DNA from: Anaeromyxobacter sp.
GTDB taxonomy: Bacteria; Myxococcota; Myxococcia; Myxococcales; Anaeromyxobacteraceae
Assembly (NCBI GenBank): GCA_049840735.1
Contig: JASGJN010000026.1
Location: forward strand, 416,001-480,000
Reading direction: 5' to 3'
Length of the DNA stretch: 64,000 nt
The notes beneath the pieces are model-generated. The model had not been told where the DNA came from, made no database searches, and saw nothing but the letters and a program-made list of their open reading frames with translations. Made by a program: the position numbers and the translations under genes. Below are positions 29,623 through 37,533 of this stretch, piece by piece; position 1 is the stretch's first letter; each line of letters begins with the position of its first letter.

Positions 29623-30911
29623 ATGTCCACGGGTCCCCGTCTCTCGCCCCTGCGCAAAGGGGAAAGCTGGCCGTCCTGCTGCCCGGCATGGGCGCGGTGG
29701 CCACCACCGCCATCGCCGGCGTGCTGGCGGTGCGCAAGGGGCTGGCGCAGCCGGTGGGCTGCCTGACGCAGCTGGGCCACCTGATGGACGAGAAGGGCGG
29801 GCACGGCGGCCGGCTCCGCGACGTGCTGCCGCTCGCCGCCTTCGACGACCTGGTCTTCGGCGGCTGGGACCCGGTCCCGGACGACGCCTACCAGGCGGCG
29901 CTGCGCGCCAACGTGCTCGACCGCAAGCACCTCGACCCCCTCCGCGAGGAGCTCGAGGCCATCAAGCCCATGCCGGCGGTGTTCGAGCCGGCCTGGGTGA
30001 GCCGCATCGAGCCGGTCAACGTGAAGAAGGGCTCGCTGCGCGCCCGCGCCGAGGCGCTGCTGGCCGACATGCGCGGCTTCCTGCAGCGGAACGGCTGCGC
30101 CCGCGGCGTGGTGGTCTGGACCGGCTCCACCGAGGCCTACGCCGAGACCGGCCCGGCCCACCTGACCCTGGCCGCCTTCGAGGCCGCGCTGGACGCGGAC
30201 GACAGGACCATCGCGCCCTCGATGGTCTACTGCTGGGCCGCGCTCAACGCCGGGCTGCCCTTCCTGAACGGCGCGCCCAACCTGACCACCGACGTGCCCG
30301 CGCTGCGCGAGCTGGCGGCGAAGAAGGGGCTGCCCACCGGCGGCAAGGACTTCAAGACCGGCCAGACGCTCATGAAGACCACGCTGGCGCCCATGCTCCA
30401 CGCGCGCCTGCTCGGCCTGCAGGGCTGGTTCTCCACCAACATCCTGGGCAACCGCGACGGCGAGGTGCTGGACGACGCCGCCAACTTCAAGACCAAGGAG
30501 GTCTCGAAGCTCTCGGTGCTCGAGGCCATCCTCGACGCGAAGCAGCACCCCGAGCTCTACGGGGACATCGACCACAAGGTCACGATCCACTACTACCCGC
30601 CCCGCGGCGACAACAAGGAGGGCTGGGACGCGATCGACCTGTTCGGGTGGATGGGCTACCCCATGCAGATCAAGATCAACTTCCAGTGCAGGGACTCGAT
30701 CCTGGCCGCGCCGCTGGTGGTGGACCTGGCGCTGCTGGGCGACCTGGCCGCCCGCGCCGGCGAGGCGGGGCCGCAGGAGTGGCTCTCCTTCTTCTTCAAG
30801 AGCCCGGTGACCGCGCCCGGCCACACGCCGGTGCACGACCTCTTCGCGCAGCAGGCCAACCTCCAGGCGAAGCTCCGGGCCTACGCCGCCGCCTACGCGG
30901 CGGCGCGGTAG
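29623..30911 (+). CDS. ino1: myo-Inositol-3-phosphate synthase; probable frameshift near the 5' end (in-frame ATG at 29688)
   Basis: 'GKLAVLLPGMGAVATT', 'VFGGWD', 'GKDFKTGQTLMKT', 'STNILGNRDG', 'GDNKEGWD', 'RDSILAAPLVVDL'. Confidence 0.93.
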
Positions 30912-30920
30912 GAGGGCGCG

Positions 30921-31694
30921 GTGGCGAGCGGCGCCTGGGCGGTGCTGGCGCACCTCGGGCTGGTGGCGCTGACGGCGGTGGTCTACGCCGCCGTACGCCC
31001 GCCCTACCCGGCGCGGCTCGACGGCTACCGCGGCCCGCTCCGCTGGCTGGGCGGCTGGGCCTACTGGGCCACCCGCCCCATCCTGCGCGCCGCCGTCCGC
31101 GGCGGCTGGACGCCGTCGGCGCTCACCTGGATCGGCCTCGCGCTCAACGTGGCCGCCGGCGTGGCCGCGGCCAGGGGCGCCTGGGGCTGGGCCTGGGTGG
31201 CGCTGCTGTGGGGCTCCACCGGCGACCTGCTGGACGGCGCGCTGGCGCGCGAGACCGGCACGGGCAGCAAGGCCGGCGCCTTCCTCGACTCCAACCTCGA
31301 CCGGCTCTCCGAGATCGCGCTGCTGGGCGGCTTCGCGGTGGGGCTGCCGGCGCCGGCCGGCGAGGCCTGGGCGGTGGCGGCGCTGGCCGCCTCGCTGATG
31401 GTCTCCTACACGCGCGCCCGCGGTGAGGGGCTGGGCGTGGACTGCCCCGGCTTCGGGATGGAGCGGCCGCACCGGATGGTGCTCTTCCTCTTCGCGCTGG
31501 TGGTGGCGCCGTTCCTGGCGCCGTCCGCCGCCGACCTGCTCCTGGTGATCACCTGTGGGGTGGTGGCGGTGGGTGCGAGCCTGACGGCGGTGGCGCGGCT
31601 GGTGGTGATCGATCGCCTGCTCCGGGCTCCCCCGCCGGTGGCGGCCGAGGAGGCACACGGTCGCCGCGGGACCCAGCCGGGCGGGATGCCGTAG
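30921..31694 (+). CDS. CDP-alcohol phosphatidyltransferase resembling phosphatidylinositol-phosphate synthase
   Basis: CDP-AP signature 'DLLDGALARETG..SKAGAFLDSNLDR'; 'VSYTRARGEGLG' and 'GMERPHR' as in PIP synthases; directly downstream of ino1. Confidence 0.85.
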   Translation: MASGAWAVLAHLGLVALTAVVYAAVRPPYPARLDGYRGPLRWLGGWAYWATRPILRAAVRGGWTPSALTWIGLALNVAAGVAAARGAWGWAWVALLWGSTGDLLDGALARETGTGSKAGAFLDSNLDRLSEIALLGGFAVGLPAPAGEAWAVAALAASLMVSYTRARGEGLGVDCPGFGMERPHRMVLFLFALVVAPFLAPSAADLLLVITCGVVAVGASLTAVARLVVIDRLLRAPPPVAAEEAHGRRGTQPGGMP

Positions 31695-31703
31695 GCTGCC
31701 GCC

Positions 31704-32853
31704 GTGCGCGTCTGCATCATCACGCCGTACGACCTGGCCATCGACGGCGGCGTGAACCGCCACGCCTTCTCGCTGGCCGCCGCGCTGGGCCGGCTGGGGC
31801 ACGAGGCGGAGGTGCTGGGGCCCACCAGCGGCCCGGCGCCGGCCGGCGCCCACGGCCTGCCCGGCGTGGTGCCGGTGCCGGCCAACGGCTCGGTGGCGCG
31901 CATCGGCCTGCTCACGCCGCCCAGGCTCACCCGCGAGTTCCTGGCCGACGGCGGCTTCGACCTGGTCCACGTGCACGAGCCCATCGTGCCCGGGCCGGGG
32001 CGCCACGCCCTGCGCCACGCCAGCGTGCCGGTGGTGGCCACCTTCCACGCCAACGCCGAGCGCGAGGTCCCGCTGCAGCGGCTGCTGCGCCGCTTCGCGG
32101 CCGGCGGCCTCGCGCGCATCGCCTTCGGCGTGGCGGTTCTCGCTCCAGGCCAAGCGCTTCTCCCGCACGATCTTCCGCGGCCGGACCGCGGTCATCCCCA
32201 ACGGCGTGGACCTGTCCCGCTTCCACGCCGCGGTGGAGCGCGCCGGGGACGAGCCGCATCCGCACGGCCCGCCGGAGGTCCTCTTCGTGGGCCGCTACGG
32301 CGAGCCGCGCAAGGGGCTGGCGGTGCTGCTGGACGCGGTGGCCCACCTGCACGCGCAGGGGCGGCCGGTGAGGACGCTGGTGGTGGGCGAAGGCCCCACC
32401 GAGCGGTTCGCGGCGCGCGCCGAGCGGCTGGGGGTCCGGTTCCTGGGCCGGCTCGACGACGACGCGCTGGCCGCCCGCTACCGCGCCGCCGACGTGTTCT
32501 GCGCCCCGTCCACCGGCGGCGAGAGCTTCGGGATGGTGCTGGTGGAGGCCATGGCCGCCGGCTGTCCGGTGGTGGCCAGCGACCTCCCCGGCTACGCCGA
32601 GGCGGCGCGCGGCGCGGCGCTGCTGGCGCGCACCGGCGAGCCGGTCGCGCTGGCGGAGGCGCTCTGGCGCGCGTGCCAGGATCGCGCCCTGCGCGAGCGG
32701 CTGGTGGTGCGCGGGCGGGCCCGCGCCGACGCGCTCTGCTGGACGCGCGTGGCCGCGCGCGTGCTCCACATCTACCAGCACGTCGTCGCGGCGCCGCTGC
32801 CGGTCCAGCCGGAGCCCGCCGCGGCGCCCTCGCCCACCCGGCGGACCGCATGA
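31704..32853 (+). CDS. GT4 glycosyltransferase, PimA-like (phosphatidylinositol alpha-mannosyltransferase-like); frameshift ~32138
   Basis: 'PYDLAIDGGVNRH', 'VPANGSVAR', 'HVHEP', 'VATFH', 'IPNGVD', 'GRYGEPRKG', 'CAPSTGGESFGMVLVEAMAAG'. Confidence 0.85.
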
Positions 32854-33560
32854 GCGATCCCAGCTTCCCCCGCACCTGGCGGCAGAAGGCCGTGCTGATC
32901 CCCATGGCCCGGACCCTCAAGCTCTGGTACCGGCCCCGCGTCCACGGGCTGGAGTCGGTCCCGGCCGACCAGCCGGTGATCTACGTCGCCAAGCACCCGC
33001 GCACGTTCCTCTACCTCGAGGTCATCGTCCTCGGCCTGCTCACCTTCTGGGACGGCGACCGGCGCCCCTTCCGCCCCATGGAGAAGCGCGGCACCTCGCT
33101 CCACAAGGTGCCCGGGCTGGCCTGGATCCGCCGGCACGTCGGCACCATCGAGGCCACCGAGGAGGCGGCGCTGGCCGCGCTCCGCGGCGGCGAGTCGGTG
33201 CTGGTCTTCCCGGGCGGCGCGCGGGAGCTGTACGGCCCGGCCGACCAGGTGGACTGGGGCGGGCGGCGCGGCTACGCGCGCATCGCGGCGCAGGCGCAGG
33301 CGCCGGTGGTGCCGCTGGCCATCGGCGGCGCCGACCAGCAGCACCCGCTGCGGCTGCCGCTGGGCCGGCGCGGCTCGCTCTGGCTCCCGCCGGTGCCGCT
33401 GCCGGTGCCGCTCGACTTCTGGTTCGGCCAGCCCATGCGCCCGCCCGCCGCCGGGGACGAGCTGGCGGTGAGGGCCTTCGCCGACGACGTGGCCGGCTGC
33501 ACGCAGGACCTGCTCGACCGCGCCGTGCTGGGCCGCCGCAAGCCCTGGAGCCTGACGTGA
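32850..33560 (+). CDS. Lysophospholipid/DGAT2-like acyltransferase 1
   Basis: 'VHGLESVP..PVIYVAKH', 'VLVFPGGARE', 'APVVPLAIGGAD'; ATGA overlap with the GT4 gene. Confidence 0.8.
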   Translation: MSDPSFPRTWRQKAVLIPMARTLKLWYRPRVHGLESVPADQPVIYVAKHPRTFLYLEVIVLGLLTFWDGDRRPFRPMEKRGTSLHKVPGLAWIRRHVGTIEATEEAALAALRGGESVLVFPGGARELYGPADQVDWGGRRGYARIAAQAQAPVVPLAIGGADQQHPLRLPLGRRGSLWLPPVPLPVPLDFWFGQPMRPPAAGDELAVRAFADDVAGCTQDLLDRAVLGRRKPWSLT

Positions 33561-34306
33561 CCGCCTCCCCGCCCGTCCGCCCCGAGATCCCGCGCATCGA
33601 CGACCGGGATCCCATCTACCGCCGCGGCATCCTCCCCTTCGCCTGGACCCTCTCGCGCTACCACCGCATGTCGATGCAGGGCGGGCCGCCGCCGGACGGC
33701 CCCTGCATCTACGTGATGCTGCACGGCGCAGGGTACCTGGTGCTGGACCTGGTGCTGGTCGGCTACTTCCTGCAGTGGAAGGGCTGGTTCGAGCGGGGCG
33801 AGCCGCACCGGCCCCTGCGCATCGTGGCGGCGCAGTCGAAGATCGAGCGGTTCCTGCCCGGCCTGCCGCGCCTCAAGGACGCGGTGGGGATCATCGGCAC
33901 CGACGAGGAGGCCTGCGCCGCCGTGCTGGAGCGCGGCGAGCAGCTGCTCATCACGCCGGGCGGCATGCGCGAGGCGCAGCCGGCGCGCGACTTCTACCGC
34001 CTGCGCTGGGAGGGGCGGTACGGGTTCGTGCGCCTGGCGCTCCGCACCGGCGTGCCCATCGTGCCGGTGGCGGTGGTGGGCGGCGCCGAGGCGTACCCCG
34101 GTTTCCGGCTGAAGAAGCTCTCCTTCTGGTCCCCGGTGCCGCTGCCCGCGCGGCTCGACATGGCCATGGGCGAGCCCATCGCCGTGCCGCACCAGCCGGA
34201 CCGCGCCCGCGAGCTCGCGGTGGTGAAGCCCATCCACGCGCTGGCCTGGCAGCGGACGCAGGCGCTCTACGACCGGCTCACGGCGGAGCGGGGCCGGCGC
34301 CGGTGA
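33557..34306 (+). CDS. Lysophospholipid/DGAT2-like acyltransferase 2
   Basis: 'IYVMLHG', 'LLITPGGMREA', 'RWEGRYGFVRLALRTGVPIVPV', 'MGEPI'. Confidence 0.82.
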   Translation: MTASPPVRPEIPRIDDRDPIYRRGILPFAWTLSRYHRMSMQGGPPPDGPCIYVMLHGAGYLVLDLVLVGYFLQWKGWFERGEPHRPLRIVAAQSKIERFLPGLPRLKDAVGIIGTDEEACAAVLERGEQLLITPGGMREAQPARDFYRLRWEGRYGFVRLALRTGVPIVPVAVVGGAEAYPGFRLKKLSFWSPVPLPARLDMAMGEPIAVPHQPDRARELAVVKPIHALAWQRTQALYDRLTAERGRRR

Positions 34307-34989
34307 CCGCGCCGCGGGTGCGCATCGCCAGCGACTGGCACCTCGCGCCGGGCAGCCCGCCGCTCCACGCCCGGCTGGCCCGCGCCTTCCTGGAGCAGGC
34401 GCGCGCCGACGGCGCGGCGGTGATCCTCAACGGCGACGTCTTCGACGACCTGTTCGCCGGCGCGGGCCGGGGCGAGGCGGCCCACCCCGAGGTGGTCGCG
34501 GCGCTGGACGCGCTGCGGGCCGACGGGCGGCTCACCCGCACCTGCGGCAACCACGATCCCGGCGCCGGCGAGCCGCGCGCGGTGCTGGACTGGCCGGGGC
34601 TGGGGCGGGTGCTGGTGGAGCACGGCCACCGCGCCGATCCGGTCAACAGCTCGCCGCTGGGCCGGCTGGGCGACGGCATCTCGCGCCGCTTCGGCCGGCT
34701 GGGCGTGGTGCGCGGCGCGGCCTGGCTGGCGGAGCAGGCGGCGCGGGCGGTGGCCGGGGAGCGGCTGGTGCGGGTGTTCAGGGCCCGCTGCCTCGCCCGG
34801 GTGGAGCGCGAGGGCTTCGCGCTGGGCGTCTTCGGGCACGTGCACGCGGCGCACCTGGCGCCGGGCGACCGCTACGCCAACGCCGGGTCGCTGCGCGGGG
34901 AGGCGCTGGAGTACCTGGAGCTGGGTCCGGGCGGGCCGCGCCTGGGGCTGCTCCGGGCGGCCGACCTGGGGCCAGACGGCACCGCCTGA
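34303..34989 (+). CDS. Calcineurin-like metallophosphoesterase (LpxH-like)
   Basis: Motifs 'SDWH', 'NGDVFD', 'GNHD', 'EHGH', 'FGHVH', 'YANAGS'; GTGA overlap. Confidence 0.85.
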   Translation: MTAPRVRIASDWHLAPGSPPLHARLARAFLEQARADGAAVILNGDVFDDLFAGAGRGEAAHPEVVAALDALRADGRLTRTCGNHDPGAGEPRAVLDWPGLGRVLVEHGHRADPVNSSPLGRLGDGISRRFGRLGVVRGAAWLAEQAARAVAGERLVRVFRARCLARVEREGFALGVFGHVHAAHLAPGDRYANAGSLRGEALEYLELGPGGPRLGLLRAADLGPDGTA

Positions 34990-35061
34990 GCGGGCGGTCA
35001 GGGCATACAATGCGCCGCGCCGGGAAGCCTGGCCGGCTCGACGACAAGGACACCCCGGACG

Positions 35062-37533
35062 ATGTCGCTCTCCGAACGCTGGGTCCGCTTCGCGGACCGC
35101 CGCCGCCGCCCGCTCCTCCTGGCCTGCACCGCGGTCGCGCTGCTGGGGCTCCTGGGCACGATCCACCTCTACGCGGACCTGCGCCCGGACCTCTCCGAGC
35201 TGCTCCCGGCCAACAGCCGCAGCGCGCTGGACCTGGCGGCGGTCACCGCCCGCGTGGGCGGCTACGCCGAGCAGACGGTGATCCTCTCCGGCCCGGATCC
35301 GATGGCGCTGCAGCTCCTGGCGGACGACCTGGCCGACCAGCTGGCCCAGGCCCCGCGCAGCCTGGTGAAGGGCGTCGAGTACCGGGTGGACGAGGTGCGC
35401 GACTTCTACCTGCCGCGCCTGCTCCTCTTCCTCTCGCAGCCGGACCTGGAGGCGCTGCGCGACCGGCTGGCGGCGCGCATCGCCTGGGAGCGCGACCAGG
35501 CGGCGGGGCGCGCCGCGGGGCCGGCCCCGGACGTCGAGGGGCTGCTGAAGCAGCTGGCCGGCGACCGGCAGGACCTGGTGGGCCGGTTCCCGGACGGCTA
35601 CGTGATGGGGAAGGTGCCGGGGCGCGAGCCGGGCCAGGAGATCACCGCGCTGGCCATGGTGGTCCGGCTGGCGGCGCCGCCCGACGACTACGGCGCGGTC
35701 ACCGCGCTGGACCGCGAGGTGCGCGCGGCCATCGCGCGGGTGGAGCCGGCGCAGCGGCAGGGGATCGAGATCGGCTTCGGCGGCTACGTCACCTCCAGCA
35801 TCCTGGAGCACGACGCGCTGGCCGAGGACCTGGTGTGGGCCACGCTGCTGGTGCTGGCGGCGGTGGCGGCGGCGGTGGCCGTCTACAACCGGACCTGGAA
35901 GGCCGTCTTCGCGGTGGGCGCCCCGCTGCTGGCCGGCACCTTCGTGACCTTCGGCGTGGCCGACCTGGTGGTGGGTCACCTCAACTCCAACACCGCCTTC
36001 CTGGGCTCGATCGTGGTCGGCAACGGCATCAACGTCGGGCTGATCCTGTTCGCGCGCTACCTGGAGGAGCGGCGCCACGGCCAGGCGCCGCTGCCGGCCA
36101 TGATCACCGCGGTGGAGGCCAGCTGGCTGGCCACGCTCACGGCGGCGCTGGCCGCCGGCGCGGCCTACGGCTCGCTCCTCTCCACCGACTTCCGCGGCTT
36201 CAACCAGTTCGGGCTGATCGGCGGCCTGGGCATGGCGCTGGCCTGGGTCTTCTCGTACGCCATGACGCCGCCGCTGGTGCTGGCCTGGGAGCGGCGCTCG
36301 CCCATCCCGCGCCAGGGCCAGCGCCCCGCCCACCCCATCTTCACCCAGGCCATCTCCTGGGCGGTGGACCGCGCGCCCCGCGCCACCGCGCTGCTGGCCG
36401 CGCTGGTCACGGCCCTCTCGGTGGTGGCGGTGGTCCGCTTCGCCCGCGATCCCATCGAGCACGACTTCCGCAAGCTGCGCGACCAGCACGCGGCCGACCC
36501 GGGCGGCCCGGCCTGGTGGGACGAGCGGGTGGACCGGATCCACGGCGGACACCTGACGCCCACGGTGCTGCTGGCCCGGGACGAGGCGGAGGCGCGGGCC
36601 ACCGCGCGCGCGCTGGAGGCGCACCGCAAGGCCACGCCGGGTACGCTGCTGGGGCAGGTGATCTCGGTGGACGCGCTGGTGCCGGAGGGGCAGGCCGGGA
36701 AGCTGCCGGTGATCGCGCAGATCCGGGCGCTGGCCACGCCGGCGAACCTGGCCTTCCTGGCCCCGGACCGCCGCATGGCGGTGCAGAAGGTGATCCCGCC
36801 GGCGGACCTGCGCCCCTTCGGCGTGGCGGACCTGCCGGAGGCGCTGCGGCGCCCGCTCACCGAGGTGGACGGGCGCGCCGGCACGCCGGTGCTGGTCTAC
36901 GCGGCCCCCTCGCTCGACAACTGGGACGGGCGCCAGGTGACGGCCTTCGCGCGCGAGCTGCGCGCCGTGGCGCTGCCGCGGGCGGACCTCCCCATGGCCA
37001 GCTCCATGCTGGTCTTCGCCGACGTGCTGGAGGCCATCGAGCAGGACGGCCCGCGCGCCACGCTGCTGTCGCTGGCCGGCGTGGTGCTGCTGGTGCTGGT
37101 GGCCTTCGGGCTGGGGAAGCGCTCGGTCCGCTCCCTCTCCGACGCGGGCTGGGTGCTGGCCTCGCTGGGCGTGGGCGTGCTCTGGTTCGGCGGCCTGGCC
37201 GGCGCGCTCCAGCTGAAGCTCAACATGCTCAACTTCATCGCCCTGCCCATCACCTTCGGCATCGGCGTGGACTACGCGACCAACGTCTTCCAGCGCCGCC
37301 GGCTCGACCACGCCGGCTCCATCGCCGACGTGATCCGCACCACCGGCGGCGCGGTGGCGCTCTGCTCGCTCACCACCATCATCGGCTACGCCTCGCTGCT
37401 CATCGCGCGCAACCAGGCGCTGATCTCCTTCGGCCTGCTGGCGGTGCTGGGCGAGGTGGCCTGCCTGGCGGCGGCGCTGCTGGCGCTGCCGGCGGTGCTC
37501 CGCTGGTACGAGCAGCGGCGGCGCGGAGGCTGA
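35062..37533 (+). CDS. MMPL/RND-family lipid transporter (HpnN-like)
   Basis: Two repeats of TM + large periplasmic loop + 5 TM; 'IVVGNGIN..LFARYLEER', 'PITFGIGVDYA', 'SLTTIIGYASL'. Confidence 0.88.
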   Translation: MSLSERWVRFADRRRRPLLLACTAVALLGLLGTIHLYADLRPDLSELLPANSRSALDLAAVTARVGGYAEQTVILSGPDPMALQLLADDLADQLAQAPRSLVKGVEYRVDEVRDFYLPRLLLFLSQPDLEALRDRLAARIAWERDQAAGRAAGPAPDVEGLLKQLAGDRQDLVGRFPDGYVMGKVPGREPGQEITALAMVVRLAAPPDDYGAVTALDREVRAAIARVEPAQRQGIEIGFGGYVTSSILEHDALAEDLVWATLLVLAAVAAAVAVYNRTWKAVFAVGAPLLAGTFVTFGVADLVVGHLNSNTAFLGSIVVGNGINVGLILFARYLEERRHGQAPLPAMITAVEASWLATLTAALAAGAAYGSLLSTDFRGFNQFGLIGGLGMALAWVFSYAMTPPLVLAWERRSPIPRQGQRPAHPIFTQAISWAVDRAPRATALLAALVTALSVVAVVRFARDPIEHDFRKLRDQHAADPGGPAWWDERVDRIHGGHLTPTVLLARDEAEARATARALEAHRKATPGTLLGQVISVDALVPEGQAGKLPVIAQIRALATPANLAFLAPDRRMAVQKVIPPADLRPFGVADLPEALRRPLTEVDGRAGTPVLVYAAPSLDNWDGRQVTAFARELRAVALPRADLPMASSMLVFADVLEAIEQDGPRATLLSLAGVVLLVLVAFGLGKRSVRSLSDAGWVLASLGVGVLWFGGLAGALQLKLNMLNFIALPITFGIGVDYATNVFQRRRLDHAGSIADVIRTTGGAVALCSLTTIIGYASLLIARNQALISFGLLAVLGEVACLAAALLALPAVLRWYEQRRRGG

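What the first reader, a model, noticed from the sequence alone, without database searches (positions are those of the whole stretch)
29623..37533. Mycobacterial-style phosphatidylinositol-mannoside (PIM)-like glycolipid operon with its own MMPL transporter in a Gram-negative myxobacterium
Seen: ino1, PIP-synthase-like CDP-AP, PimA-like GT4, two acyltransferases, a metallophosphoesterase and MMPL, co-directional with overlaps or ~10-bp gaps (72 bp before MMPL). Established: Actinobacteria make PIMs via Ino1, PgsA1, PimA and PatA, with pgsA1-patA-pimA clustered, and MmpL/HpnN proteins move lipids outward. Inference: a self-contained pathway from glucose-6-P to inositol-P, PI(P), glycosyl-PI and an acylated product, then export to the outer membrane. 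I know of no described glycosylated, acylated inositol lipid pathway in this lineage. The lipid backbone (DAG, ether or ceramide) and the sugar donor cannot be determined from sequence.
Basis: partly seen in the sequence, partly recalled or inferred. Interest (0 to 1): 0.8.

Follow-up and report, generated by a model that had tools for sequence, protein, structure and literature searches.

The report
PimA glycolipid operon in Gram-negative Anaeromyxobacter
A Gram-negative soil bacterium of the Anaeromyxobacter group carries a seven-gene operon, conserved in most of its genus, that likely builds a mannose-bearing, likely acylated inositol membrane lipid of a kind described as peculiar to mycobacteria and their relatives, and that is predicted to move it out of the inner membrane with its own transporter.

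Summary
The seven genes are real, with the stated spacing. The glycosyltransferase belongs to the PimA family: best solved-structure match E 3e-63 against 1e-19 for the next, Tyr9/His118/Asp253/Glu274 kept, and a tree clade at 100/100. The rest is not mycobacterial. Ino1 is Bacteroides-type, both acyltransferases are PlsC/DGAT-like rather than PatA, the phosphoesterase is a narrow LpxH-fold family, and the transporter is HpnN-like. The PimA-bearing form occurs in 23 of 36 genus relatives. Natural deletion variants help assign roles: ino1-PIPS-MMPL (4 genomes), ino1-PIPS-phosphoesterase (4), no AT1 (4), no PIPS (4). Best reading: PI(P) is made, dephosphorylated, mannosylated (PIM1-like), acylated once or twice and exported by the MMPL. 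Still open are the backbone (the genome also has SPT-like and Aur1-like genes), the acyltransferases' acceptor, and the destination (MlaC in only 2 of 37 genus genomes). No description was found in the paper library. New variant of a known kind, testable in cultured Anaeromyxobacter.

The parts
29623..30911 (+). ino1, myo-inositol-phosphate synthase, Bacteroides BT_1526 type; frame break near 29656-29667 in this assembly
   Evidence: PF07994 E 3e-81; PDB 7NWR E 5e-145 vs 1gr0 E 2e-4; break:
30921..31694 (+). CDP-alcohol phosphotransferase of the PIP-synthase/AIP-synthase type
   Evidence: All 5 PDB hits are PI(P) synthases; DxxDGxxAR..GxxxDxxxD plus the SY.RAR and ERP.R segments are kept; NCBIfam PIPS/AIPS models hit below their cut-offs
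31704..32853 (+). PimA-family GT4 glycosyltransferase; one extra base near 32136-32139 in this assembly
   Evidence: PDB PimA E 2.7e-63, next E 1.2e-19; motif table; tree; break
32850..33560 (+). AT1, LPLAT/MGAT-like acyltransferase (H-x7-E), lost in some relatives
   Evidence: PF01553; alignment; absent from L026, L032, L136, L139
33557..34306 (+). AT2, LPLAT/DGAT-like acyltransferase (H-x7-D), paralog of AT1 (29-37% identity), found with PimA in every locus long enough to show it
   Evidence: PF03982+PF01553; model pLDDT 87, best fold PlsC Z 16.5 vs PatA 10.3
34303..34989 (+). Calcineurin-like metallophosphoesterase with an LpxH-like fold and helical cap, GNHD motif; candidate PIP phosphatase
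   Evidence: All metal motifs invariant; top Foldseek hits are LpxH; narrow family, 12 clusters at E<=1e-30; found in ino1-PIPS-MPE operons
35062..37533 (+). MMPL/HpnN-like RND transporter
   Evidence: PF03176; PDB HpnN E 1e-11; below the HpnN and BstA cut-offs; found in ino1-PIPS-MMPL operons

Best explanation
The operon likely makes a mannosylated, likely acylated phosphatidylinositol (a PIM1-type glycolipid) on the inner face of the inner membrane, and its MMPL is predicted to move that lipid out of the inner membrane. Steps: (1) Ino1 turns glucose-6-P into inositol-phosphate (family assignment shown, activity inferred). (2) The PIP synthase joins it to CDP-DAG to give PIP (inferred from motifs and the nearest structures). 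(3) The LpxH-fold phosphoesterase removes the inositol phosphate to give PI (inferred from gene variants; the weakest enzyme step). (4) The PimA-family GT adds mannose from GDP-mannose to inositol 2-OH (family and residues shown, activity inferred). (5) AT2, and optionally AT1, add acyl chains to the head group, replacing PatA non-orthologously (inferred from co-occurrence). (6) The MMPL extracts the lipid toward the periplasm or outer membrane (substrate class inferred from gene linkage, destination unproven). My step odds: PI(P) made 0.9; GT glycosylates an inositol lipid 0.85; sugar is mannose 0.75; ATs acylate the head group 0.65; phosphoesterase is the PIP phosphatase 0.55; MMPL substrate is the inositol lipid 0.75; final site is the outer membrane 0.5.
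For: GT: PimA is the best PDB match by 44 orders of magnitude. It keeps Tyr9, which PMC2988379 (passages) names as the PimA-versus-PimB' acceptor residue. It also keeps Gly16, His118, Arg196, Lys202, Asp253, Glu274-Ser275-Phe276 and Glu282, which PMC9883506 (passages) lists for GDP-Man binding. It falls in the PimA-family clade at 100/100. The genome has a mannose-1-P guanylyltransferase gene next to a phosphomannomutase-like gene. Conservation: an AT2 ortholog at >=58% identity in 23 of 36 genus relatives and 1 of 24 other-family genomes, with co-linear order in 20 of 20 loci. Natural variants: 4 genomes keep only ino1-PIPS-MMPL, arising at least twice, which ties the MMPL to a PI-type lipid. 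4 genomes (one clade) keep only ino1-PIPS-phosphoesterase, which ties that enzyme to the PIPS product. In all 8 of these PimA-less variants both ATs are absent, so the ATs track PimA and not PIPS. The G056 copy inserts TolC-like and MlaC genes before the MMPL. 7 of 12 more distant PimA-like loci in the phylum have an MMPL and/or TolC+MlaC alongside. 5 of 12 other MMPL loci carry a PIPS-like gene.
Against: No activity or lipid has been shown; I found no lipid data for the genus. The ATs' nearest solved fold is the LPA acyltransferase PlsC, and public records name them 1-acyl-sn-glycerol-3-phosphate acyltransferase. PimA's Tyr62 is Ala, and Ile278 is Met. A PgpA gene, the family that acts as PIP phosphatase in Bacteroides, is present in 36 of 37 genus genomes, so the phosphoesterase is not required for that step. 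The genome also has SPT-like and Aur1-like genes, which could supply a ceramide acceptor. MlaC was found in only 2 of 37 genus genomes and not in this 94%-complete one. Two frameshifts are present in this assembly.
Confidence: 0.55

Rival explanations
1. Same chemistry on a ceramide backbone. PI donates phosphoinositol to ceramide through an Aur1-like enzyme encoded elsewhere, and the PimA-family GT makes a bacterial mannosyl-inositol-phosphoceramide (MIPC-like), which is then acylated and exported.
For: The genome has an SPT-like gene whose best PDB and NCBIfam hits are serine palmitoyltransferases and an Aur1-like PAP2_3-acyltransferase fusion. Distant PimA-like loci contain Aur1-like PAP2 genes. 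Inositol phosphoceramide is reported for Myxococcus xanthus (PMC9246714, passage).
Against: Neither gene is in the operon. The SPT-like protein is below the curated cut-offs (446 vs 640; 445 vs 500). PimA itself acts on PI.
Confidence: 0.13
2. The two acyltransferases build the lipid backbone (LPA or monoacylglycerol acyltransferases making a special DAG for this PI). The product is an unacylated PIM1.
For: Fold nearest PlsC (Z 16.5, rmsd 3.1 over 190 residues); DAGAT/Acyltransferase Pfam families; public annotation.
Against: The ATs are missing from all 8 PimA-less operons that keep PIPS, and are kept in the 4 operons that lost PIPS. The genome has two further MGAT-like paralogs elsewhere.
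Confidence: 0.13
3. The phosphoesterase is a PlcP-like phospholipase that removes the phosphatidyl part, so the end product is a phosphorus-free acylated inositol mannoside made under phosphate limitation.
For: LpxH-like lipid-binding fold. PlcP is a phospholipase C paired with a GT4 in phosphate-starved bacteria, with LpxH used as its outgroup (PMC9239053, passages). ppk/ppx lie upstream here, and ppx is within 5 of 33 relative loci. Two ATs would give a diacyl product; a diacyl inositol mannoside of propionibacteria is recalled, not retrieved.
Against: The enzyme also occurs with ino1-PIPS alone. AT1 is often lost, which would leave a mono-acyl product. No PlcP sequence was compared. ppx linkage is a minority pattern.
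Confidence: 0.1
4. In this particular genome the operon is decaying: the ino1 and GT frameshifts are real and no glycolipid is made here. The family-level reading is unaffected.
For: Two breaks. The genome has a spare ino1. Related lineages repeatedly delete the PimA block.
Against: 3 of 33 tested genes in this assembly are frameshifted. Both halves of the GT keep 98-100% GC at third codon positions and 73% identity to intact orthologs. Splits in relatives lie at other positions, in 68-88% complete assemblies.
Confidence: 0.12
5. The CDP-alcohol phosphotransferase makes a soluble compatible solute (di-myo-inositol phosphate type) that is then glycosylated.
For: Weak hit to a bifunctional IPCT/DIPP-synthase model.
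Against: That hit is 32.8 bits against a cut-off of 580, while the PIPS/AIPS models score 86-110. No inositol-phosphate cytidylyltransferase is in the operon. Acyltransferases and an MMPL point to a lipid.
Confidence: 0.02

Closest known systems
Actinobacterial PI/PIM locus pgsA1-patA-pimA (PimA, PDB 2GEJ/4N9W; PatA, PDB 5F2Z)
   Same: PIP-synthase-type CDP-AP plus a PimA-family GT with the acceptor and GDP-Man residues kept, clustered with acyltransferase genes.
   Different: No PatA: PatA-like genes lie beside 22 of 26 actinobacterial pimA hits and AT1/AT2-like genes beside 0 of 26. Ino1, a phosphoesterase and an MMPL are inside the operon. No second mannosyltransferase in the operon. The GT forms its own Myxococcales clade, 35-43% identical to actinobacterial PimA. 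Host is a Gram-negative genus.
Bacteroides thetaiotaomicron inositol-lipid cluster BT_1522-BT_1526 (PMC9246714)
   Same: Gram-negative host, Ino1 of the same type (7NWR, E 5e-145), two-step route via PIP.
   Different: BT uses a PgpA-like phosphatase and an Aur1-like IPC synthase, and has no PimA, acyltransferases or MMPL in the cluster.
HpnN (hopanoid) and BstA (sterol) MMPL-family lipid exporters
   Same: MMPL-family RND encoded beside the genes for its lipid cargo; HpnN is the only PDB match.
   Different: Far below the HpnN and BstA cut-offs (187 vs 752; 113 vs 1400). The TM4 Asp of HpnN is Asn and an Asp-Tyr sits in TM10, in all 32 sequences compared. Linked to inositol-lipid genes. No periplasmic partner in most of the genus.
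LpxH and PlcP metallophosphoesterases
   Same: Calcineurin-like core with a helical cap; the top Foldseek hits are all LpxH.
   Different: GNHD in place of LpxH's GNRD (alignment); 18.6 bits vs a cut-off of 134; a narrow family largely confined to this operon. PlcP was not compared directly.

Membership tests
PimA (GDP-Man:PI alpha-1,2-mannosyltransferase) | GT4 whose closest characterised relative is PimA and that groups with PimA rather than PimB'/MshA | tested here: met
   PDB E 2.7e-63 vs PimB' 5e-12 and MshA-type 7e-16; PimA-family clade 100/100 against 4 outgroup GT4s
PimA (GDP-Man:PI alpha-1,2-mannosyltransferase) | Tyr9 acceptor residue (Asp in PimB') | tested here: met
   PYD motif invariant in 14 of 14 orthologs and present in the window; residue role from PMC2988379
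PimA (GDP-Man:PI alpha-1,2-mannosyltransferase) | GDP-Man site: Gly16, Arg196, Lys202, Asp253, Glu274-Ser275-Phe276, Glu282, His118 | tested here: met
   All kept; Ile278 (main-chain contact) is Met; roles from PMC9883506
PimA (GDP-Man:PI alpha-1,2-mannosyltransferase) | Acceptor loop Tyr62-Asn63-Ser65-Arg68 (role recalled, from no call) | tested here: inconclusive
   Asn, Ser and Arg kept, Tyr is Ala; several actinobacterial hits also have Ala/Ser there
PimA (GDP-Man:PI alpha-1,2-mannosyltransferase) | Transfers mannose from GDP-Man to the 2-OH of PI | not testable with these tools
   Needs an enzyme assay
Actinobacterial pgsA1-patA-pimA locus | PatA (HtrB/MsbB-like, PF03279) acyltransferase beside pimA | tested here: not met
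   AT1/AT2 are PF01553/PF03982; no significant BLAST match to a bifidobacterial PatA-like protein (best E 0.25); the genome's two PF03279 genes lie on other contigs
Actinobacterial pgsA1-patA-pimA locus | Second mannosylation (PimB') giving PIM2 | not tested
   None in the operon; no genome-wide PimB' search was run
PIP synthase (PgsA1/BT_1523/AIP synthase) | CDP-AP catalytic motif plus the segments shared with PIP synthases | tested here: met
   motif definition from PMC9246714
PIP synthase (PgsA1/BT_1523/AIP synthase) | Curated model cut-off | tested here: inconclusive
   110/180, 97/170 and 86/350 bits: best three families, none over cut-off
DIPP synthase (soluble solute) | IPCT partner or domain and model score | tested here: not met
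   32.8 vs 580 bits; no cytidylyltransferase in the operon
LpxH | GNRD motif and curated cut-off | tested here: not met
   GNHD invariant; 18.6 vs 134 bits
PlcP phospholipase C | Grouping with characterised PlcP; phospholipase C activity | not tested
   No PlcP sequence was retrieved; the paper with the motifs is not held
HpnN hopanoid transporter | Model cut-off and hopanoid gene context | tested here: not met
   186.9 vs 751.85 bits; neighbours are inositol-lipid genes
Bacteroides BT_1522-1526 cluster | PgpA-like phosphatase and Aur1-like synthase in the cluster | tested here: not met
   Both exist elsewhere in the genome, not in the operon

The most novel reading that the evidence does not exclude
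Myxococcota use a dedicated MMPL subfamily, in places with MlaC and TolC, to export a range of decorated inositol lipids to the outer membrane, and Anaeromyxobacter's version is an acylated PIM, outside the Actinobacteria and built with different parts: a new PIP phosphatase family (LpxH fold) and PlsC/DGAT-like acyltransferases that acylate mannose and inositol. That would give the first enzymes of these folds for two steps, one of which (inositol acylation) still has no enzyme in mycobacteria, and the first MMPL with an inositol-glycolipid cargo.
Probability: 0.35. Interest if true: 0.82.

Novelty: new variant of a known kind. Interest (0 to 1): 0.65.

Why it matters
[quoted passage not shown] The enzyme that acylates their inositol is still unknown (same paper, and PMC13223929 of 2026, passages). 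A compact operon in a cultured Gram-negative genus (named orthologs in A. oryzae and A. oryzisoli) would extend PIM-type glycolipids to a Gram-negative envelope. It offers candidates for a PIP phosphatase and for head-group acyltransferases unrelated in sequence to PatA, and a genetic lead for an MMPL that carries an inositol lipid. Natural deletion variants predict distinct lipid profiles, so the hypothesis can be tested by comparative lipidomics even without genetics. Caveat: PMC9490103 speculates that the mycobacterial inositol acyltransferase works on the periplasmic side, so the ATs here may not be its homologs.

Tried and rejected
Reads: no sequencing run was listed, so the frameshifts could not be checked; this blank is no evidence. 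The phylum search scored only 4 candidates per genome: 0 of 185 in the largest family means 'not found with this query', not absent. PgpA presence does not discriminate between variants (36 of 37). The PF00155 search was too generic to say anything about sphingolipids and was replaced. The promoter scan found 0 sigma-70-like sites, and its 3 terminator-like hits lie inside genes. The ESM Atlas gave only generic family labels. No complex prediction was run, since no binding is claimed and AT1 is dispensable. A 723-aa library protein (P0124) joins AT1-AT2-MPE but contains an out-of-frame-looking stretch, so I did not use it as fusion evidence. Rejected: wholesale transfer of an actinobacterial PIM locus (Ino1 type, ATs and MMPL differ; the GT sits in an unresolved polytomy, so direction is not resolved); DIPP solute; PatA orthology. 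Literature: 10 full-text searches (listings only, except the papers read) showed no description of a PimA operon or glycosylated PI in Anaeromyxobacter or Myxococcota. The library lacks most subscription papers. Guerin 2007, Guerin 2010, Lorenzen 2014 and Wei 2018 were not held. No supplements were read. Acylated inositol mannosides in Thermomicrobia (Chloroflexota) and propionibacteria are recalled and were not retrieved; if correct, 'unique to Actinobacteria' is already not strictly true.

Full report
Observation. Seven co-directional genes fill 29623-37533: ino1, a CDP-alcohol phosphotransferase, a GT4, two acyltransferases (AT1, AT2), a metallophosphoesterase (MPE) and an MMPL, with gaps of 9, 9, -4, -4, -4 and 72 bp. 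Two genes are broken in this assembly: the GT4 by one extra base near 32136-32139, and ino1 by a shift near 29656-29667. In 20 relative loci the GT4 is intact in 17, split elsewhere in 2 and cut by a contig end in 1. Two more split copies appeared in later loci (L138, L219). Of 33 genes of this genome that matched relatives' genes, 3 are frameshifted. I read the breaks as probable assembly errors; no runs were listed to test this.

Host. The genome is 6.67 Mb in 26 contigs, 94% complete. Named close homologs come from Anaeromyxobacter sp. and Anaeromyxobacteraceae and from A. oryzae and A. oryzisoli. The genus belongs to Myxococcota, Myxococcales.

The glycosyltransferase. Read with X at the break, it matches PimA in the PDB over its full length at E 2.7e-63; the next hit is 1.2e-19, MshA-type 7e-16, PimB' 5e-12. 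It keeps Tyr9, reported as strictly conserved in PimA against Asp in PimB' (PMC2988379, passages). It keeps Gly16, His118, Arg196, Lys202, Asp253, Glu274, Ser275, Phe276 and Glu282, reported as GDP-Man contacts or essential residues (PMC9883506, passages). Tyr62 is Ala and Ile278 is Met. A careful tree of 38 rows, chosen from the 81, puts it in the PimA family (100/100) within a 12-row Myxococcales clade (100/98). That clade stands in an unresolved polytomy with actinobacterial PimAs and a Chloroflexota/Gemmatimonadota/Myxococcota group. Identity to actinobacterial PimA hits is 35-43%. The direction of any transfer is not resolved. A mannose-1-P guanylyltransferase gene and a phosphomannomutase-like gene are present in the genome.

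The other enzymes are not mycobacterial. Ino1 matches Bacteroides BT_1526 (7NWR, E 5e-145; identity of the entry from PMC9246714) far better than 1gr0 (E 2e-4). The CDP-AP matches only PI(P) synthases in the PDB (5 of 5) and keeps their motifs, but stays below the curated cut-offs. AT1 and AT2 are paralogs with an invariant His and a PGG-RE block. The AT2 model (pLDDT 87) is closest to PlsC (Z 16.5, rmsd 3.1, 190 aligned) and more distant from PatA (Z 10.3, rmsd 4.6, 168 aligned). PatA-like genes flank 22 of 26 actinobacterial pimA hits and AT1/AT2-like genes flank none; PatA resembles HtrB/MsbB (PMC4792965, passages). Distant members of the AT family occur in 22 of 41 Actinomycetota genomes (the tally includes the unpublished G419), at best E 2e-31. 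The MPE has intact metal motifs with GNHD and an LpxH-like fold (pLDDT 92; Foldseek ranks 1-18 are LpxH). It forms a narrow family: 12 clusters at E<=1e-30 among 1.8 billion representatives, found in 35 of 92 family genomes. The MMPL matches only HpnN in the PDB and lies far below the HpnN and BstA cut-offs.

Distribution and natural variants. An AT2 ortholog (>=58% identity) occurs in 23 of 36 genus relatives and 1 of 24 genomes of other families. A PimA ortholog (>=57%) occurs in 24 of 401 phylum genomes, 23 of them in the own family including this genome (only 4 candidates were scored per genome). Gene order is co-linear in 20 of 20 loci. Four variants exist. (a) No PIPS in the operon: 4 genomes, one clade; all 4 have a stand-alone PIPS-like gene, as does this genome. 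(b) No AT1: 4 genomes, at least three places in the quick PimA tree. (c) ino1-PIPS-MMPL only: 4 genomes, at least two events in a FastTree of ino1. (d) ino1-PIPS-MPE only: 4 genomes, one clade. Five genus genomes (56-91% complete) had neither AT2 nor MPE and were not examined further. The reduced forms nest among full ones, so they are losses. The MMPL and the MPE each stay with PI synthesis without PimA, while the ATs never appear without PimA (8 of 8). Kin are not independent, so these are few events.

Export. In G056, a genome of another family, TolC-like and MlaC genes lie between MPE and MMPL, and a weak START-like gene follows. Of 12 more distant PimA-like loci, 7 have an MMPL and/or TolC+MlaC. 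Of 12 other MMPL loci, 5 carry a PIPS-like gene, several with GtrA, aminotransferase, oxidoreductase, PgpA or Aur1-like genes. MMPL-family proteins encoded beside their lipid pathway are known for sterols and hopanoids (PMC11713862, passages). Against a simple outer-membrane route: MlaC was found in only 2 of 37 genus genomes and not in this one.

Mechanism. Most likely: glucose-6-P to inositol-P to PIP to PI to mannosyl-PI, then one or two head-group acylations, then extraction by the MMPL (0.55 for the whole core; step odds are given in Best explanation). Rivals: a ceramide backbone, since the genome has SPT-like and Aur1-like genes; ATs that build the backbone; MPE as a PlcP-like phospholipase giving a phosphorus-free glycolipid (PMC9239053, passages); real decay in this genome. 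PgpA is present in 36 of 37 genus genomes, so the MPE is not needed as the only PIP phosphatase.

Novelty. PMC9490103 (passages) calls PIMs unique to Actinobacteria and the inositol acyltransferase unidentified; PMC13223929 (passages) repeats the latter in 2026. PMC3229680 (passages) describes the pgsA-acyltransferase-pimA operon. PMC9246714 (passages) covers the Bacteroides route and cites inositol phosphoceramide in M. xanthus; PMC10191378 (passages) added nothing on this. Ten searches showed no account of this operon, within a library that lacks most subscription papers; no supplements were read. An earlier AI note of this scan reports a similar cluster in Polyangia; it is a lead, not independent support. 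Verdict: it works like the early PIM pathway, the GT is a PimA-family member, and the operon is not a member of the actinobacterial locus. New variant of a known kind; interest 0.65.

Noticed in passing
L144:818-11728 (also L145, L143, L147, L150, and own genome L192:6164-8870): A second, diverged PimA-like clade (EYY, HAPL, ISSFG motifs) sits beside a polysaccharide deacetylase and an LPG_synthase_TM flippase. In L144 it also has two Aur1-like PAP2 genes, PgpA, PIPS, DUF3047 and an MMPL. GT4 plus deacetylase suggests GlcNAc transfer then de-N-acetylation on an inositol lipid, like the first GPI steps; untested.
   Followed up: partly
L202, L205, L207, L209: Related MMPL loci carry a PIPS-like gene and a class III aminotransferase (all four), a GtrA gene (L202, L205, L209) and a Gfo/Idh oxidoreductase (L202, L205); L205 also has an SPT-like gene. 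Possibly an amino-inositol (inosamine) lipid pathway.
   Followed up: partly
L224:5912-8188 (G000:C9): Aur1-like PAP2_3 domain in one 759-aa frame with a PlsC-type acyltransferase domain, near a YegS-type lipid kinase.
   Followed up: partly
L052, L089, L061: PimA-family genes in Gemmatimonadales and Chloroflexota: L052 has PHP-PimA-PIPS; L089 has two PatA-like genes, PHP and PimA. PimA loci therefore occur in further non-actinobacterial phyla.
   Followed up: partly
L130:8605-9951 and L131:7984-8811 (G000:C17, C16): A second ino1 (60% identical) and a stand-alone PIPS-like gene elsewhere in the genome.
   Followed up: partly
window:17458-24904 (-): Yip1-TolC-HlyD-ABC-MacB-FtsX-signal peptidase efflux module. 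Its TolC is within 8 of 33 relative loci and Yip1 within 12 of 33; one FtsX-like gene appears frameshifted.
   Followed up: partly
window:25546-29423: Divergent ppx and ppk (polyphosphate) genes directly upstream of the operon; ppx is within 5 of 33 relative loci, ppk in none.
   Followed up: partly
window:40156-42067: DedA/VTT gene, encapsulated-ferritin cargo gene and encapsulin shell gene downstream; DedA lies near the operon in 12 of 33 relative loci.
   Followed up: no
window:43898-52914: Lower-GC (65-71%) maltodextrin-type uptake block: amylase, MalK, binding protein (apparently split in two frames), permeases, LamB porin.
   Followed up: no
window:54531-59672: 1714-aa Kelch-repeat protein with a C-terminal OmpA domain.
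   Followed up: no
L141:9508-11115: 536-aa gene with no Pfam match between the PimA-like GT and the flippase; the equivalent position in L140 weakly matches PMT_2 (GT-C).
   Followed up: no
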